Assembly: GCF_036919495.1 (NCBI RefSeq)
Contig: NZ_JBALBZ010000027.1
Coordinates: forward strand, 7,779-71,778
Direction: 5' to 3'
Length of the DNA: 64,000 nt
DNA from: Nostoc sp.
GTDB lineage: Bacteria; Cyanobacteriota; Cyanobacteriia; Cyanobacteriales; Nostocaceae
A program made the position numbers and the translations under genes. Each line of letters starts with the position of its first letter. Positions within the stretch are counted from its first letter, which is position 1. This document shows, piece by piece, positions 5,143 through 26,785 of this stretch. The notes below the pieces were generated by a model, which ran no database searches, had not been told where the DNA came from, and worked only from the letters and a program-made list of their open reading frames with translations.

Positions 5143-7026
5143 CTATAAAGCCTTCAGATGCCGACTTCGCACCCGTTCAGCACTACCAGTAGGAATCGCA
5201 GCAATTAATTTTTGCGTGTATTCTTCTTTGGGTTCTTGGTAAATGCTTTCGGCTGTGCCTTCTTCAACAATTTGACCGCGATTCATAACTAAAATGCGAT
5301 CGCTCATAAATTTCACTACACTTAAATCGTGAGAAATAAAAATATAAGTAAGCTGAAAGTCTGACTGTAATTCTTTGAGAAGATTTAATACTTGCGCTTG
5401 TACTGAAACATCCAGCGCTGAAACTGATTCATCGCAGATGATAAACTTAGGGTTTAACGCCAAAGAACGGGCTATACAAATTCGTTGGCGTTGACCACCA
5501 GAAAACTGATGAGGATAGCGGTTAATCGCATCTGCACTCAACCCCACCCGTTCTAAAAGTTCGACTACGCGCTGCCCTCGTTGTTGCTTTGTCTTACCCA
5601 CAGCGTGAATTAACAACGGTTCCATCACCGCATCCCCAACCTTCATCCGGGGATCGAGGGAACTAAAAGGATTTTGGAAGACTATTTGCATTTCCCGCCG
5701 CAGTTTTTGCAACGGTTCACCTTTGAGGCTAGTAATATCTTGTTTCTCAAAGATAATCTGACCACCCATCGGTTCAATTAATCGCAACAAGGTTCTGCCA
5801 AGGGTGGTTTTACCGCAACCAGATTCTCCCACTAAACCTAGTGTTTCTCCTGGTTTGACATCAAAAGAAACGCCATTAACTGCCATATTGTAGCGTTTTG
5901 TCCCACCAAACACCCCGCGCACTGGAAAACCAACTTTCAGGTTACGGATTTGCAGCAGAGGTTCCTTTTGATTAAAGTTTGCCAATCTTGCAGCAATTTC
6001 TTCGGTGGTGACTTCTGTGGGTTGTGCTGGTTCTTTCGGCTGAATTACTACTTGTCCCGTTGCTGTCTCTTCTGCACTCATGTAGTCAGAAACGGTGAGT
6101 AATTTTTGGGGACGACGGTTGAGTGTGGGCCGACAAGCTATCAAACCTTTAGTATATGGATGCTGAGGACTGCTGAAAATTTGCCGAGAAGTACCAGATT
6201 CAACAACTTTACCTTTATACATCACCGCTACTTCGTCAGCAATTTCTGAAATTAGCCCCAAGTCGTGGGTGATGAAAATCATTGCCATGTCACGGCTTTG
6301 CTGCAATTCTCGCAACAAGTCCAAAATAGTCGCTTGCACCGTCACATCTAAAGCTGTGGTTGGCTCATCGGCAATTAAGATTAATGGGTTGCAAGAAATT
6401 GCCATTGCAATCATTACCCGTTGCAACTGACCGCCAGAAAGTTCATGAGGGTAGCGTTCCAGCATGGCTTCTTTGTGTTCTTTAACCAACTGTGCCAACT
6501 TTGATGGTTCTGGTTTCGATGACTTGCTGGTTTGATGCCAAGTTTCGATATACTGCTGCTGGATCTCCTCATCACTAGGTAGAAGTTTAACCTCTTGTAG
6601 ACCTGCGATCGCAATTTGTCGTGCTTGGGCTGCTGACACATTTTGATGCCGCATAATCGCTTCTGTTAGCTGAAAACCGATGTTATAAACTGGATTAAGC
6701 GAACTCATCGGTTCTTGAAAAATCATGGCGATGTCGCCACCCCGATGTAACTGCATTTGCTCAGGAGGCAATGTTACCAAATCGATGGCGTTGGCATTCT
6801 CCTGCGGACGAAACCAGATTTCACCGCCAGTAACTATACCGGGACTTTGCAACAAACCCATTACAGCTAGGGCTGTCACTGATTTACCACTCCCCGATTC
6901 TCCTACTATTCCTAGAGTTTCACCTCGATGCAGCCCAAAGGAAATACCATCCAAAGCTCTGACAGTGTTGCCATCACCGGGAAATTCAACTTGGAGATTG
7001 CGAACCTCTAGGACAGTTTCTCTCAT
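5143..7026 (-). CDS. ABC transporter ATP-binding protein, duplicated ATPase (oligopeptide/dipeptide type)
   Basis: Two Walker A motifs ([16 protein letters not shown]) and two signatures ([16 protein letters not shown]). 627 aa. Confidence 0.9.
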
Positions 7027-7105
7027 AGGAGTTGGGTGGAAATATTAACTTAAAATTATTTGATTTTAACAATAGTTTTGATGTATATGTGGATAAATTT
7101 GGTTT

Positions 7106-7533
7106 TTACCTTTGGATTGGATCGTCCATTGATGGATGCCGACCGATTTCTTTATCAGCTGCACGAATATTAATAATCCGTTCCCGATTCAAGATTAATA
7201 CAGTGACGGTCACTCGTCCAATAGGTGTCAAACCAACAATTAGCAGTCCATCCGCAGACCAGATAAAATGCTCACTCCAAATGTGCGATCGCGGATTAAA
7301 CAGTAAAACTTCTTCTCCAGATTGAGGGTCAGTTGCTGTAAGCCGATTTGTCTTCCTGCGATTGCAGTGAAAGCAAGCCAACGCCAGATTTTCCAAATTA
7401 TCTGTTCCACCTAATGATCTACTGTGAATTGCACATATTGCCATTGTTCAGATGCATGACAGTACTCACACAAGTAGTTGGCGCGTTGACGTAATTGCTT
7501 TTGTATAGATTCAGTAGATAAAAAAAATAGCAC
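7106..7533 (-). pseudogene. HNH endonuclease, frameshifted
   Basis: N-terminal piece (GTG 7533 ... RQRANYLCEYCHASEQWQYVQFTVDH, stop 7413-7411) and C-terminal piece (SLGGTDNLENLALACFHCNRRK..., ORF 7106..7444) lie in different frames. The residues expected between DH and SLGG are missing. Confidence 0.75.
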
Positions 7534-7624
7534 ATCTTCAAAGATGGCTATTTCTAAAATTATTTAATCCTAATGCTTTTTGCCAAGTATGTAAGTAAAT
7601 TGAATACACGCTCAACTACCAACT

Positions 7625-10103: not shown

Positions 10104-10532
10104 TTAACGTCCAGCAAAAGCATCTTCCAGTATGCGTTCTATACCCGTTTCAGCAAATGCTGCTAAAAAAATAATTGCTTTAAGATTACGTAGAACTATA
10201 GCTTCATAAGTAACAACTTTTATAAAATCCCGAAGACTAATGGTTTTTGCTACAGAAGAACCTCTGGCAGATTTACCTTCAAATTGCCTGATAACCCTAA
10301 GCTCAACTTGTGCGCCTGTAAAACCTGTATTCTGTAAACTTTTCAGCCATTTTGACTGTCTTTTTGTGCGGTTGTAAAACCAACGATCTGTATACCCAAG
10401 AGCAATACCTGTTCCTTCAATACCAAGACGCTTTTCATTACTAGGCAACATGTAAACGTCTAAGAAAGAATTGCCAAGAGGGATATCACAAGCAACCGCT
10501 TTAATAACATCAAACTCAGAAACATCACTCAT
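10104..10532 (-). CDS. hypothetical protein, possibly a truncated P63C-like (phage-related) protein
   Basis: 142-aa ORF. The C-terminal AAFAETGIERILEDAF loosely resembles the start of P63C domains and then stops. Weak call made by eye. Confidence 0.35.
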   Translation of the reverse strand: MSDVSEFDVIKAVACDIPLGNSFLDVYMLPSNEKRLGIEGTGIALGYTDRWFYNRTKRQSKWLKSLQNTGFTGAQVELRVIRQFEGKSARGSSVAKTISLRDFIKVVTYEAIVLRNLKAIIFLAAFAETGIERILEDAFAGR

Positions 10533-24994: not shown

Positions 24995-25609
24995 TTGCAC
25001 CAAATGCATCTGAGATTTTCTCAAGATATAAAGTCCTTGTTGCAACGCCTAGCTGAACAACCGCTAACTCTAGGTGATATTTTGGCAGAAACCTCAGAAC
25101 GGGGGTTCTGCCTGGTAATTACATTATTAATTTTGCCTTTTTTATTTCCTATGCCACCGGGATTAACCGGTCCTTTTGGTGGTGCTTGTTTACTGTTGTC
25201 AGTGCAAATGCTTTTAGGGAGGCGTGAGCCTTGGCTGCCGAAAAGAATTGCTAACTACAAATTTCCTCGTCCCTTTGCCCAGTTACTTTTGCAAAATTTG
25301 GGACGTCTTACCAAAGTGTTACAGAAAATCGCCCGTCCTCGATTGGCAAAAATAGCTTATAATCCTTTGATTTGGCGAATTAATGGGCTTTGTATCTCTT
25401 TGTTAACAGTATTACTAATATTACCAATTCCCTTTACAAATCCCATCCCCACTGTAGGTATTTTACTTTTGACTGTTGCCACCATCGAATCTGACGGGTT
25501 ATTAATTTGCATCAGCTACGGTATTACTATCCTAATTACTTTGCTTTTTGGATTTCTTGGTTATGCAGTATGGTTAGCTCCCAGTTTACTGCCATCTATA
25601 TTTAAATAA
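24995..25609 (+). CDS. exoD: exopolysaccharide synthesis protein ExoD
   Basis: SERGFCLVITLLILPFLFPMPPGLTGPFGGACLLLSVQMLLGRREPWLPKRI matches the ExoD family pattern. An ATG at 25004 is the likely start. Confidence 0.75.
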   Translation: MHQMHLRFSQDIKSLLQRLAEQPLTLGDILAETSERGFCLVITLLILPFLFPMPPGLTGPFGGACLLLSVQMLLGRREPWLPKRIANYKFPRPFAQLLLQNLGRLTKVLQKIARPRLAKIAYNPLIWRINGLCISLLTVLLILPIPFTNPIPTVGILLLTVATIESDGLLICISYGITILITLLFGFLGYAVWLAPSLLPSIFK

Positions 25610-25662
25610 TAAAAGCCCCCAGCTTTAGGCTGAAGGCTGTAATTTATTAGGGTGCATCTACC
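25608..25662 (-). ncRNA. NsiR1-like small RNA, copy 1 of a tandem array
   Basis: On the minus strand: CCCGGA box (plus-strand 25693-25698), TAAATA -10-like hexamer, GTAGATGCACC..., 10-bp stem AGCCUUCAGC/GCUGGGGGCU with a 5-nt loop, then UUUUAUU. Confidence 0.5.
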
Positions 25663-25737
25663 ATTTATTTATCCAGTTTATTCATTGTCATATCCGGGGG
25701 AATTAAACCTTTATTCTTAAATTAAAAAATATCAGCA

Positions 25738-25792
25738 ATAAAAAAGCCTTCAACTAAAAGCTGAGGGCTATGATTTAATTAAGGTGCATCTA
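25738..25792 (-). ncRNA. NsiR1-like small RNA, copy 2
   Basis: Same layout as copy 1. TCCCGGA box (plus-strand 25825-25830), identical GGATAAATAAATGGTAGATGCACC, terminator AGCCCUCAGC-UUUUA-GUUGAAGGCU + U6. Confidence 0.5.
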
Positions 25793-25887
25793 CCATTTAT
25801 TTATCCGCTTTATTGATTGTCATATCCGGGAAAATTTAACTTTGCAAAAAAAAATATTTAATTTAAAATCAACAAATATCAAGAATA

Positions 25888-25941
25888 AAAAAAGCCCCCA
25901 ACTAAAAGCTGAGGGCTGTGATTTAATTAAGGTGCATCTAC
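25888..25941 (-). ncRNA. NsiR1-like small RNA, copy 3 (promoter box degenerate)
   Basis: Body and terminator are conserved (AGCCCUCAGC-UUUUA-GUUGGGGGCU + U7), but the CCGGA box is replaced by cctgatgcagc. Confidence 0.35.
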
Positions 25942-26230
25942 TATTTATATATCCGCCTTAGCTATTGCTGCATCAGGAAGAATTGAAAAAAAATGGATAG
26001 CTGTAGAATTGATTTCGTTAGTTACAAAAGTAGTACTGATATCATCGAGGATAACCTACAGTATTTAACTAGGTAATCATTGACCAACTTCATAGCAATT
26101 TTACAATTACCCAAAATTTCCCTTAGATACGCAAAGTTTCTGTTAATATCTCTGACCCTATATCCGCAATAGTACGAATTTAGTTTATTAGTTGGGTATA
26201 TAGCTATGAAAGTTAAACATACCCAACTTG

Positions 26231-26785
26231 ATGAAGCGATCGCAGTTTCTATTAGCCCTTGCTAGTTTTAGTATTGTCGGGGGAAGCTTTTTTCTGAGAA
26301 CAACTTTTAGCAGTACTAGGGAACCTAAAATAATAACTGATACATCACGCTACCAAGAAATTCGTAATCAACTATGGTCTGATAATGACCAAGTAAAACA
26401 TTTTCCTAATGAGATTCCCACTGATGCCAAAAATGTTCGCATTGCTTACTCTCCCGAATCGCAAGGAAGTAGTTTTTTTCAAATTAGGCTGAAACAGCCG
26501 CCAAACAAGATAGAAAAACTACTTTCACAATACAGAAGTAGTGCAAAGCACAAATATAGGGGTGGTAGCACAAATGACCACATAAATCAACCTAATGGTG
26601 TGCCGACAACTTTTTTCTACACCAGTGACTCTCATACAGAATCTTTTCCACCTAATTATGAAATATTAGTATTAAATACAGAGGATAAAGGTAGACCTGG
26701 CTTCAAGTGGAATCATGGAAATAGCTACGGCGTCGCTATCAATACTTCCGCCTCAGAAATTATTTATTGGTCTGAAAAATGGTGA
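26231..26785 (+). CDS. hypothetical secreted protein
   Basis: 184 aa from ATG 26231 with an N-terminal hydrophobic segment. No recognisable family. Confidence 0.5.
   Translation: MKRSQFLLALASFSIVGGSFFLRTTFSSTREPKIITDTSRYQEIRNQLWSDNDQVKHFPNEIPTDAKNVRIAYSPESQGSSFFQIRLKQPPNKIEKLLSQYRSSAKHKYRGGSTNDHINQPNGVPTTFFYTSDSHTESFPPNYEILVLNTEDKGRPGFKWNHGNSYGVAINTSASEIIYWSEKW

What the first reader, a model, noticed from the sequence alone, without database searches (positions are those of the whole stretch)
25608..25980. Tandem array of three promoter-sRNA-terminator units resembling NsiR1, but not next to hetF
There are three direct repeats: 25608-25700, 25736-25830 and 25884-25977, spaced about 130 and 150 bp apart. 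On the minus strand each unit has the same order of parts.
- A CCCGGA box: CCCCCGGA in copy 1, TCCCGGA in copy 2, lost in copy 3.
- About 21 nt downstream, a TAAATA -10-like hexamer.
- A near-identical body, GGTAGATGCACC(U/C)UAAU.
- A 10-bp GC-rich stem with a 5-nt loop, followed by a U run.
The stems differ between copies, but the changes keep pairing on the minus strand (AGCCUUCAGC/GCUGGGGGCU; AGCCCUCAGC/GUUGAAGGCU, one mismatch; AGCCCUCAGC/GUUGGGGGCU). The same changes create C-A mismatches on the plus strand. That argues for a selected minus-strand RNA of about 52-55 nt.
Established knowledge: NsiR1 of Nostoc PCC 7120 is a roughly 60-nt heterocyst-specific sRNA. It is encoded in tandem direct repeats, each with its own promoter carrying the DIF motif TCCGGA near -35. 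That array lies upstream of, and antisense to, the hetF leader.
Here the box is one C longer than TCCGGA. The neighbours are exoD and a 185-aa secreted hypothetical, not hetF. This is therefore either a relocated or second NsiR1 array, or a distinct repeated sRNA family.
Basis: partly seen in the sequence, partly recalled or inferred. Interest (0 to 1): 0.75.

Follow-up and report, generated by a model that had tools for sequence, protein, structure and literature searches.

The report
Second NsiR1-type sRNA array beside exoD
Three tandem small-RNA genes at 25608-25980 are diverged relatives of NsiR1, the small RNA made in developing nitrogen-fixing cells of Nostoc; they sit at a second locus, just after the exoD gene, that is conserved across related cyanobacteria and exists alongside the well-known array next to hetF.

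Summary
Three direct repeats on the minus strand (RNAs at 25663-25608, 25795-25738 and 25943-25887) each carry a promoter-like box, a conserved 5' core and a terminator.

All three match Rfam NsiR1 (41.6, 33.5 and 35.9 bits; gathering score 39). hetF is absent from the whole 64-kb window.

This is a second locus, not a relocated array. The same exoD-[array]-185-aa-gene arrangement occurs in at least six other Nostoc assemblies. Two of them also carry a canonical hetF-linked array on another contig.

A single exoD-linked copy is found in Calothrix PCC 7507, Nostoc PCC 7524, a Trichormus variabilis relative and Scytonema PCC 10023. Goleter has an exoD-type copy whose exoD linkage could not be seen.

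The exoD-linked genes form a separate sub-family:
- Rfam NsiR1 scores them 33-44 bits, against 62-78 for hetF-linked copies.
- A model built from them scores them 45-87 bits, against 28-45 for everything else.

The -35 box lies in exactly the canonical register with one mismatch to TCCGGA: CCCGGA twice and TCCTGA once. It is not "one C longer", and it is not lost in copy 3.

Expression, heterocyst specificity and targets are inferred, not shown. I could not rule out that the PCC 7120 orthologue is already named.

The parts
The 5' end is UGGUAGAUGCACCCUAAU. The terminator stem is at 25614-25638. The 3' U-tail overlaps the exoD stop codon (25607-25609).
   Evidence: Rfam NsiR1 41.6 bits, above the gathering score of 39. 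Own model R1 82.8 bits. Terminator scan. Fold -17.2 kcal/mol.
25693..25698 (-). -35 box of gene C: CCCGGA at -35 to -30, one mismatch to the DIF1 consensus TCCGGA. The conserved GGATAA lies at 25669-25674.
   Evidence: Read from the sequence. Same register as TCCGGA in hetF-linked copies, and conserved in orthologous copies.
The terminator stem is at 25745-25769 and has one C-A mismatch.
   Evidence: Rfam NsiR1 33.5 bits, E 1.1e-4 in the local search. R1 80.4 bits. Fold -13.0 kcal/mol.
25825..25830 (-). -35 box of gene B: CCCGGA at -35 to -30.
It starts UAGUAGAUGCACC. The terminator stem is at 25893-25917.
   Evidence: Rfam NsiR1 35.9 bits, E 2.9e-5. R1 82.1 bits. Fold -17.4 kcal/mol, z -2.97. 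Terminator scan.
25973..25978 (-). -35 box of gene A: TCCTGA at -35 to -30, one mismatch to TCCGGA.
   Evidence: Conserved in all orthologous A copies, in Goleter and in Nostoc PCC 7524. The same variant precedes NsiR1-type genes in several Leptolyngbya-like cyanobacteria.
25004..25609 (+). exoD, convergent with the array. This is the conserved syntenic anchor of this sRNA sub-family.
   Evidence: Pfam PF06055, 188.6 bits. The 201-aa gene call is taken from L121. An exoD-linked sRNA gene is present in all sampled Nostocales exoD loci.
26228..26785 (+). 185-aa ORF with a hydrophobic N-terminus and no family match, divergent from the array. This is the position hetF holds at the canonical locus. 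It is a neighbour only in the Nostoc punctiforme-like clade.
   Evidence: It is absent beside exoD in Calothrix PCC 7507, Nostoc PCC 7524, the T. variabilis relative and Scytonema.

Best explanation
The region holds three independent minus-strand transcription units. Each encodes an sRNA of about 56-58 nt that belongs to a diverged, exoD-linked paralogue of the NsiR1 family.

**Shown.**
- The units match the NsiR1 covariance model.
- They share the family's 5' core.
- Each has a DIF1-type hexamer, one mismatch from the consensus, in the canonical -35 register.
- Each ends in an intrinsic terminator.
- The locus is conserved next to exoD across Nostocales genera.
- Close relatives also keep a canonical hetF-linked array.

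**Inferred.**
- The units are switched on after nitrogen step-down in differentiating heterocysts, through the DIF-type promoters.
- They act in trans by base pairing through the conserved, mostly unpaired 5' segment UGGUAGAUGCACCYUAAU.
- The different linker and terminator give them a target set that only partly overlaps that of canonical NsiR1. The hetF leader is a possible shared target.
- The terminator of the exoD-proximal gene, which begins 4 nt after the exoD stop codon, probably also ends exoD transcription. That would help explain why the linkage persists.
- The array grew from two genes (A and C) to three by unequal recombination.
For: **Family match.** Rfam NsiR1 hits all three units on the minus strand, full length (41.6, 35.9 and 33.5 bits).

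**Promoter register.** 29 nt separate the hexamer from U1 in the exoD-linked, hetF-linked and non-heterocystous copies checked. DIF+ promoters are operationally defined as TCCGGA near -35 with one mismatch allowed (PMC6133370).

**Synteny.** The same exoD-array-185-aa-gene order is seen in L020, L027, L036, L086, L094 and L126. Single exoD-linked genes occur in Scytonema, Calothrix PCC 7507, Nostoc PCC 7524 and a T. variabilis relative.

**Second locus.** JBALDU01 and JBALCO01 each carry a HetF-adjacent array (NCBIfam NF045509) as well as the exoD array.

**Sub-family separation.**
- Rfam scores hetF-linked copies 62-78 bits and exoD-linked copies 33-44.
- Own model R1 scores exoD-linked copies 45-87 bits, including orthologues not used in training, and all others 28-45.

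**Selection.**
- sRNA bodies are 0.91-0.96 conserved across six Nostoc loci. Spacers are 0.68-0.75 and flanking coding ends 0.93-0.97.
- The terminator helix is 92% paired. Six of its 11 pairs change on both sides once distant genera are included, and 1 of 500 shuffles reaches the covariation score.

**Pairing.** The 5' end forms a contiguous 13-15-bp duplex with the hetF leader of relatives. The energy is -42 to -50 kcal/mol, against about -24 for shuffled sequences. In PCC 7120, non-cis NsiR1 copies partly regulate hetF (PMC9045159).

**Shared terminator.** A terminator-like site on the plus strand lies at 25620-25639, directly after exoD.
Against: - There are no expression data of any kind.
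- Two of the three copies fall below the Rfam gathering score.
- None of the three boxes matches TCCGGA exactly. A DIF1 box alone does not confer heterocyst specificity, because the -10 region also matters (PMC6133370). The -10 region here (GCGGATAA) differs from that of hetF-linked copies (CTAGAAC).
- Copy B has a C-A mismatch in its terminator.
- Covariation among the close Nostoc copies alone is no better than in shuffles. The better figures come from an alignment fitted to the model.
- Predicted pairing with the hetF leader is far weaker than for canonical copies (-94 to -100 kcal/mol). It was also computed without intramolecular structure, and on relatives' sequences.
- The source genome's own hetF locus was not seen.
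Confidence: 0.72

Rival explanations
1. The units are decaying remnants of an NsiR1 duplication. They are no longer expressed or functional, and survive only because one hairpin serves as the exoD terminator.
For: - Rfam scores are low (33-44 bits, against 62-78 for hetF-linked copies).
- No box matches TCCGGA exactly.
- Copy B has a mismatched stem.
- The hairpin of copy C abuts the exoD stop codon, and a plus-strand terminator-like site is found there.
Against: - The 5' core, the promoter box register and the -10 region are kept in exoD-linked genes from Nostoc to Scytonema, while the spacers diverge.
- Copies A and B are not needed to terminate exoD, yet they are as conserved as coding sequence.
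- In the T. variabilis relative and in Scytonema the sRNA gene lies about 450 and 97 nt from exoD, so it cannot be only its terminator.
- The TCCTGA box is the normal form for NsiR1-type genes in several other cyanobacteria.
Confidence: 0.1
2. The array acts mainly in cis, as an antisense regulator of a neighbour. It would act either on a long leader of the divergent 185-aa gene, as NsiR1.1 does at hetF, or on the 3' end of exoD by read-through.
For: - The geometry mirrors the hetF locus: the array is divergent from, and upstream of, a protein gene.
- A weak plus-strand promoter-like site at 25841-25869 would give a transcript that runs antisense through copy A into the 185-aa gene.
- Copy C overlaps the exoD stop codon.
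Against: - Promoter-like sites in the region are at chance level (5 found, 4.2 expected). The best one (26080-26107, 10 of 12) would start the 185-aa mRNA downstream of the array.
- The 185-aa gene is not beside the sRNA gene outside the Nostoc punctiforme-like clade.
- Strong terminators should limit read-through into exoD.
- There is no notable complementarity to either neighbour's translation start region.
Confidence: 0.1
3. The units are expressed sRNA genes, but some or all are not heterocyst-specific. The CCCGGA and TCCTGA boxes, together with a different -10 region, would place them under another regime: general nitrogen stress, another cell type, or constitutive expression.
For: - The box alone is not enough for heterocyst specificity; the -10 region matters (PMC6133370). 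That region differs here.
- NsiR1-type genes with TCCGGA or TCCTGA boxes exist in cyanobacteria that form no heterocysts, so this promoter type is not tied to heterocysts as such.
Against: - Single-copy exoD-linked orthologues in Calothrix PCC 7507, Scytonema and the T. variabilis relative carry exact TCCGGA in the canonical register.
- Some hetF-linked copies in relatives also use CCCGGA (L012 at 1657 and 1976, L017 at 6000).
Confidence: 0.25

Closest known systems
NsiR1 (Rfam RF02399), the hetF-linked tandem array of Nostoc/Anabaena PCC 7120 and other Nostocales
   Same: - Same 5' core, UGGUAGAUGCACC.
- Same size class (about 55-62 nt).
- An intrinsic terminator.
- Tandem units, each with its own promoter.
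- A DIF1-type hexamer in the same -35 to -30 register.
- Divergent orientation relative to a protein gene.
- Copy-number variation and signs of recombination within the array.
   Different: - Not beside hetF; it is convergent with exoD instead.
- Position 16 is A, not G, and the linker and terminator stem differ (AGCCCUCAGC against CUCCCCUAGU).
- The Rfam score is about half that of canonical copies.
- 1-3 copies, where PCC 7120 has 12 at hetF.
- The boxes are CCCGGA and TCCTGA, and the -10 region is GCGGATAA, not CTAGAAC.
- Nothing is known of its expression or targets.
Sibling sRNAs with a shared seed and diverged bodies. PMC9045159 mentions multicopy sRNAs in E. coli, Pseudomonas, Bacillus and Sinorhizobium; the examples OmrA/B, PrrF1/2 and AbcR1/2 come from my own knowledge.
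   Same: These are paralogous sRNAs that keep one conserved pairing segment while the rest diverges, giving partly overlapping regulons. PMC9045159 shows this within the hetF array for NsiR1.1 and NsiR1.4.
   Different: Here the siblings lie at separate conserved loci (hetF, exoD, and a third locus between a tetrapyrrole methylase gene and lgt). No target has been tested for this one.
Other DIF1-promoter, HetR-dependent sRNAs of PCC 7120 (NsiR8, NsiR9; NsiR2 could not be checked)
   Same: They are non-coding RNAs presumed to be driven by DIF-type promoters in developing heterocysts.
   Different: NsiR8 is 171 nt and NsiR9 is 122 nt (PMC4734099), so they are not this RNA. Neither is reported to share the NsiR1 5' core. 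The paper defining NsiR2 (Mitschke et al. 2011) is not held, so identity with the PCC 7120 orthologue cannot be excluded.

Membership tests
NsiR1 (Rfam RF02399) | Covariance-model score at or above the curated gathering score (39 bits) | tested here: inconclusive
   Copy C scores 41.6 bits and passes. Copies A and B score 35.9 and 33.5 bits and fall just below, with local E-values of 2.9e-5 and 1.1e-4 and full-length alignments. Orthologous exoD-linked copies range from 33 to 44 bits. hetF-linked copies score 62-78.
NsiR1 (Rfam RF02399) | Conserved 5' sequence UGGUAGAUGCACC at the start of the RNA | tested here: met
   The match is exact in copies B and C. Copy A has one change (G2 to A).
NsiR1 (Rfam RF02399) | An RNA of about 60 nt ending in a Rho-independent terminator | tested here: met
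   The units are 56-58 nt with 10-11-bp stems and U runs. The helix is 92% paired across 26 orthologous genes.
NsiR1 (Rfam RF02399) | Tandem direct repeats, each with its own promoter | tested here: met
   Three units are spaced 132 and 148 nt apart, and each has an upstream box and an A/T-rich -10 region. That the promoters are active is an inference.
NsiR1 (Rfam RF02399) | DIF1 motif TCCGGA around -35 | tested here: inconclusive
   The hexamer sits in exactly the canonical register, but every copy has one mismatch (CCCGGA, CCCGGA, TCCTGA). One mismatch is allowed in the operational DIF+ definition (PMC6133370). CCCGGA also occurs in some hetF-linked copies. No copy matches the exact consensus.
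NsiR1 (Rfam RF02399) | Located upstream of, and antisense to, the leader of hetF ('in the vicinity of hetF', PMC4030482) | tested here: not met
   No HetF match was found among the large ORFs of the window. tblastn finds nothing at E up to 10. The neighbours are exoD and a 185-aa ORF.
NsiR1 (Rfam RF02399) | HetR-dependent, heterocyst-specific induction after nitrogen step-down | not testable with these tools
   This needs Northern blots, dRNA-seq or gfp fusions in the wild type and a hetR mutant.
NsiR1 (Rfam RF02399) | Represses hetF (antisense) and alr3234 (in trans) | not testable with these tools
   Only an in-silico hint exists: a 13-15-bp 5' duplex with the hetF leader of relatives. The alr3234 orthologue of this genome was not available.
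exoD-linked NsiR1-type sub-family (defined here) | High score with model R1, a position convergent with the 3' end of exoD, and CCYUAAU after the core | tested here: met
   The window copies score 80-83 bits, but they were in the training set. Untrained orthologues score 76 (Calothrix PCC 7507), 62 (T. variabilis relative) and 45 (Nostoc PCC 7524). All other NsiR1-type genes score 28-45. Synteny is shown.

The most novel reading that the evidence does not exclude
The NsiR1 'family' may really be a set of at least three ancient sibling sRNAs at separate conserved loci: hetF, exoD, and a locus between a tetrapyrrole methylase gene and lgt. They share one 5' pairing module and a TCC(G/T)GA promoter box.

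On this reading the exoD-linked sibling has its own regulon, set by its distinct linker. Its CCCGGA and TCCTGA promoters may respond differently in timing, strength or cell type from the canonical TCCGGA promoters.

The same promoter-plus-sRNA module also occurs in filamentous cyanobacteria that make no heterocysts. Comparing genomes could therefore help identify the still-unknown factor that reads the DIF box.
Probability: 0.25. Interest if true: 0.6.

Novelty: new member of a known kind. Interest (0 to 1): 0.4.

Why it matters
NsiR1 is one of the earliest markers of heterocyst differentiation, and the papers read here treat it as a hetF-linked array.

A second paralogue that is conserved in synteny would mean three things:
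- The heterocyst sRNA network has more nodes than the papers read here assume.
- Northern probes and knock-downs directed at the shared 5' core may also hit these siblings.
- Natural promoter variants (TCCGGA, CCCGGA, TCCTGA) in a fixed register could be used as a mutational series for dissecting the DIF1 element.

The practical value is modest. The RNA family is already known and the locus is partly detectable with the standard Rfam model.

Tried and rejected
- **hetF in the window.** Pfam and NCBIfam scans of 20 ORFs, including every ORF of 470 aa or more, and tblastn with a HetF from L017 found nothing.
- **Source genome.** Exact-protein look-ups returned only short metagenome contigs (ERZ24794448, ERZ24794452, ERZ24794454). 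The strain's own hetF locus could therefore not be fetched. I ran no further search on it, because 90% cluster representatives were unlikely to lead to the same strain.
- **Row limit.** The genome-contig scan stopped at 120 stretches, so counts of loci are samples, not a census.
- **Covariation among close Nostoc copies.** It was no better than in shuffles. It became informative only after distant orthologues were added through a model-fitted alignment.
- **Cis-antisense to the 185-aa gene or exoD.** Promoter-like sites are at chance level, and there is no special complementarity.
- **In-window target scan.** The best hit was the translation start of ORF 10104-10532. It is borderline after multiple testing, and the ORF has no family match.
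- **Failed scripts.** The first duplex computation timed out and a file-path error followed. The computation was redone on 120-nt targets.
- **Literature.**
  - No held paper links NsiR1 with exoD or mentions NsiR1-like paralogues.
  - NsiR8 and NsiR9 are excluded by size.
  - Mitschke et al. 2011, which defines NsiR2 and the DIF+ list, is not held.
  - The supplement of PMC4734099 gives coordinates without sequences.
- **Generic dispersed repeat.** Rejected.
Full report
**1. Observation**

The region 25608-25987 holds three direct repeats of about 100 nt: 25608-25707, 25740-25839 and 25888-25987. They are spaced 132 and 148 nt apart.

On the minus strand each unit has the same order of parts:
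- a hexamer box;
- an A/T-rich -10 region, 29 nt in all between the box and the RNA start;
- the sequence U(G/A)GUAGAUGCACC;
- a short A/U-rich linker;
- a 10-11-bp G+C-rich hairpin and a U run.

The terminator scan finds the hairpins of the two outer units and one plus-strand echo, 3 sites against 0.5 expected. The 12-nt core occurs nowhere else in the 64-kb window at 0-1 mismatch. An independent metagenome contig (L121) whose proteins match the window at 100% carries the same three units at the same spacing, so the array is not an assembly artefact.

**2. Identity**

The Rfam NsiR1 model (RF02399) matches all three units on the minus strand, full length:

| Unit | Coordinates | Bits | Gathering score |
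|---|---|---|---|

Local E-values run from 1e-6 to 1e-4. No other Rfam family comes close.

**3. Surroundings**

The array lies between two genes:
- exoD (25004-25609, plus strand, Pfam PF06055), which is convergent with it. The stop codon at 25607-25609 overlaps the U-tail of unit C.
- A 185-aa ORF with no family match (26228-26785, plus strand), which is divergent from it.

Further out lie a YegS-type lipid kinase, an SDR oxidoreductase and a PSII S4-domain protein.

No ORF in the window is HetF, and tblastn with a HetF sequence finds nothing at E up to 10.

**4. Is it relocated or additional?**

It gave two kinds of Nostoc loci.

- **The same locus as here.** L020, L027, L036, L086 and L094 have the same exoD-[three units]-185-aa-gene-SDR order. 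ExoD is 92-95% identical to the window's.
- **The canonical locus.** L005, L012, L017 and L047 have arrays of up to 8-9 units with canonical sequence, next to a gene that matches the NCBIfam HetF equivalog NF045509. L002 and L010 match the L017 HetF at 71-80% identity by tblastn.

Two assemblies contain both kinds: JBALDU01 (L012 and L020) and JBALCO01 (L047 and L094). The exoD array is therefore an additional locus in this clade and does not replace the hetF array. For the window's own strain this is an inference from relatives, because only short contigs of it could be found.

**5. How old is the exoD linkage?**

I fetched exoD neighbourhoods through ExoD homologues and scanned them for the core.

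| Genome | exoD-linked copies | Box at -35 to -30 |
|---|---|---|
| Nostoc punctiforme-clade contigs (L126, L127, L131) | 2-3 | CCCGGA and TCCTGA |
| Calothrix PCC 7507 (L135) | 1 | TCCGGA |
| Trichormus variabilis relative (L132) | 1 | TCCGGA |
| Nostoc PCC 7524 (L136) | 1 | TCCTGA |
| Scytonema PCC 10023 (L016) | 1 | TCCGGA |

Goleter (L025) has an exoD-type gene with TCCTGA at the edge of its 8-kb block, so exoD itself could not be seen there.

In every case where exoD was visible, the sRNA gene is convergent with it. It usually abuts the stop codon. In Scytonema it lies about 97 nt away and in the T. variabilis relative about 450 nt away.

The 185-aa gene is a neighbour only in the Nostoc punctiforme-like clade.

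**6. A separate sub-family**

Rfam NsiR1 scores by type:

| Type | Bits |
|---|---|
| hetF-linked copies | mostly 62-78 |
| Third, single-copy type | about 52 |
| Arrays in non-heterocystous cyanobacteria | 42-60 |
| exoD-linked copies | 33-44 |

Two exoD-linked orthologues fall below E 0.01 with the Rfam model.

I built a model (R1) from 21 exoD-type sequences. It scores exoD-linked genes at 45-87 bits. That includes orthologues not used for training: Calothrix PCC 7507 at 76, the T. variabilis relative at 62 and Nostoc PCC 7524 at 45. Every other NsiR1-type gene scores 28-45.

The sub-family shares nt 1-15 with canonical NsiR1. It then has A in place of G at position 16, a different linker and a different terminator stem.

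**7. Promoters**

In canonical copies TCCGGA occupies -35 to -30, with 29 nt to U1. The window's units carry a hexamer in exactly that register:
- CCCGGA at 25693-25698 (unit C);
- CCCGGA at 25825-25830 (unit B);
- TCCTGA at 25973-25978 (unit A).

So the box is not one C longer, and it is not lost in unit A. Each copy is one mismatch from the consensus, which the operational DIF+ definition allows (PMC6133370).

CCCGGA also occurs in some hetF-linked copies of relatives. TCCTGA is conserved in all orthologous A copies. It is also the regular box of NsiR1-type genes in several Leptolyngbya-like cyanobacteria, so it looks like a usable variant and not a dead promoter.

The -10 region (GCGGAT(A/T)A) is conserved within the sub-family, Scytonema included. 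It differs from that of hetF-linked copies (CTAGAAC). Both the box and the -10 region matter for heterocyst specificity (PMC6133370), so cell-type specificity here remains an inference.

**8. Selection and structure**

Across six orthologous Nostoc intergenic regions, the mean fraction of sequences identical to the window is:

| Segment | Fraction |
|---|---|
| sRNA bodies | 0.91-0.96 |
| Promoters | 0.82-0.93 |
| Spacers | 0.68-0.75 |
| Flanking coding ends | 0.93-0.97 |

Within the close Nostoc set the terminator helix is 91% paired, against 26-68% when partners are slid, but covariation is no better than in shuffles.

With distant orthologues added in a model-fitted alignment, 6 of the 11 terminator pairs change on both sides, and 1 of 500 shuffles reaches the covariation score. 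This alignment leans towards the structure.

Many G-U pairs would be A-C mismatches on the other strand. That agrees with the Rfam strand call and the U runs. Folding energies favour the minus strand for units A and C but not for B.

**9. Mechanism (inferred)**

The conserved, largely unpaired 5' segment is the one part shared by the hetF-type, the exoD-type and a third type. It is therefore the best candidate for the pairing module.

The window's sRNAs can form a contiguous 13-15-bp duplex with the hetF leader of close relatives. The energy is -42 to -50 kcal/mol, against about -24 for shuffled sequences. Canonical trans copies reach -94 to -100 kcal/mol. In PCC 7120, non-cis copies partly regulate hetF, and sequence differences between copies change target preference (PMC9045159). 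The exoD-type's distinct linker therefore suggests a partly different regulon.

I found no special complementarity to exoD or to the 185-aa gene.

The hairpin of unit C begins 4 nt after the exoD stop codon and scores as a terminator on the plus strand too. It probably ends exoD transcription as well, which may help preserve the linkage.

Unit B combines a C-like promoter with an A-like body in the window. Some strains have only A and C (L127, L131). This points to unequal recombination within the array.

**10. Comparison with what is known, and novelty**

The papers I could read place nsiR1 in tandem 'in the vicinity of hetF' in all heterocystous genomes (PMC4030482, PMC9045159, PMC6596454, PMC3610870). 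No held paper links NsiR1 with exoD or describes paralogous loci. NsiR8 and NsiR9 are excluded by size.

The paper defining NsiR2 and the DIF+ promoter list is not held. I therefore cannot exclude that the PCC 7120 orthologue is already named.

The standard Rfam model already detects one of the three units. For these reasons I rate this as a new member of a known kind, of moderate interest.

Noticed in passing
L119:5838-5888, L054:3835-3885; also L001, L028, L052, L063, L065, L070, L072, L097: A third NsiR1-type gene occurs as a single copy across Nostocales genera (Nostoc, Calothrix, Trichormus, Raphidiopsis, Nostochopsis). Its sequence is UGGUAGAUGCACCCUGGUUAAGCCCUAGAG..GGGGCAUUUUUU, it has an exact TCCGGA box, and it scores about 52 bits with Rfam NsiR1. 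In the five loci checked for neighbours (L119, L054, L052, L072, L028) it lies between a tetrapyrrole methylase gene (PF00590) and lgt (PF01790). I found no description of it in the papers read.
   Followed up: partly
L026, L046, L048, L107, L011, L009, L069, L087, L095, L110 and others: Tandem NsiR1-type arrays (2-10 copies, 42-60 bits with Rfam NsiR1) occur in filamentous cyanobacteria that form no heterocysts, including Lyngbya PCC 8106, Symploca, Microcoleus vaginatus and Leptolyngbya-like strains. Each copy has TCCGGA or TCCTGA at -35 to -30. Other non-heterocystous loci, mostly with a single copy (L013, L100, L106, L112), lie beside a hetF homologue. A Limnospira paper mentions an NsiR1-like RNA (PMC8400943), so this is partly known.
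   Followed up: partly
L045:3509-3825 (Nostoc sp. FACHB-280): Three canonical-type NsiR1 copies (63-74 bits) with a TCCGGT box lie between a sigma-factor-like gene and an NAD kinase gene. No hetF is present in the 8-kb block. This is another NsiR1 array away from hetF.
   Followed up: partly
window:25738-25832 compared with 25608-25700 and 25887-25980; L127, L131: Unit B is chimeric in the window: its promoter resembles unit C and its RNA body resembles unit A. In L126, B resembles C throughout. Some Nostoc punctiforme-clade contigs have only A and C. This suggests recombination or gene conversion and copy-number polymorphism within the array.
   Followed up: partly
window:23412-23648 (+); L126:1266-2212 and 6857-7548: IS630-type transposase fragments lie near the lipid kinase-exoD-array block. 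In the window the fragment is identified by eye only. In the orthologous Nostoc locus L126, DDE_3 and HTH_Tnp_IS630 fragments lie on both sides of the block.
   Followed up: no
window:10520-10545 (-), start of ORF 10104-10532: The sequence GGUGUUUCUACCAUG spans the start codon of a 142-aa ORF with no family match. It is complementary to the sRNA 5' core with two mismatches (-20.1 kcal/mol). This was the best of 234 sRNA/start-region pairs in the window, but it is only borderline after multiple testing.
   Followed up: partly
L029:7317-7466 (MAG labelled Chroococcales): A contig binned as Chroococcales carries the Nostoc-type locus: the 185-aa gene at 86% identity and unit A intact. Unit B is cut off after about 20 nt by unrelated sequence containing GCGATCGC. 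This is probably a binning error combined with a rearrangement.
   Followed up: no
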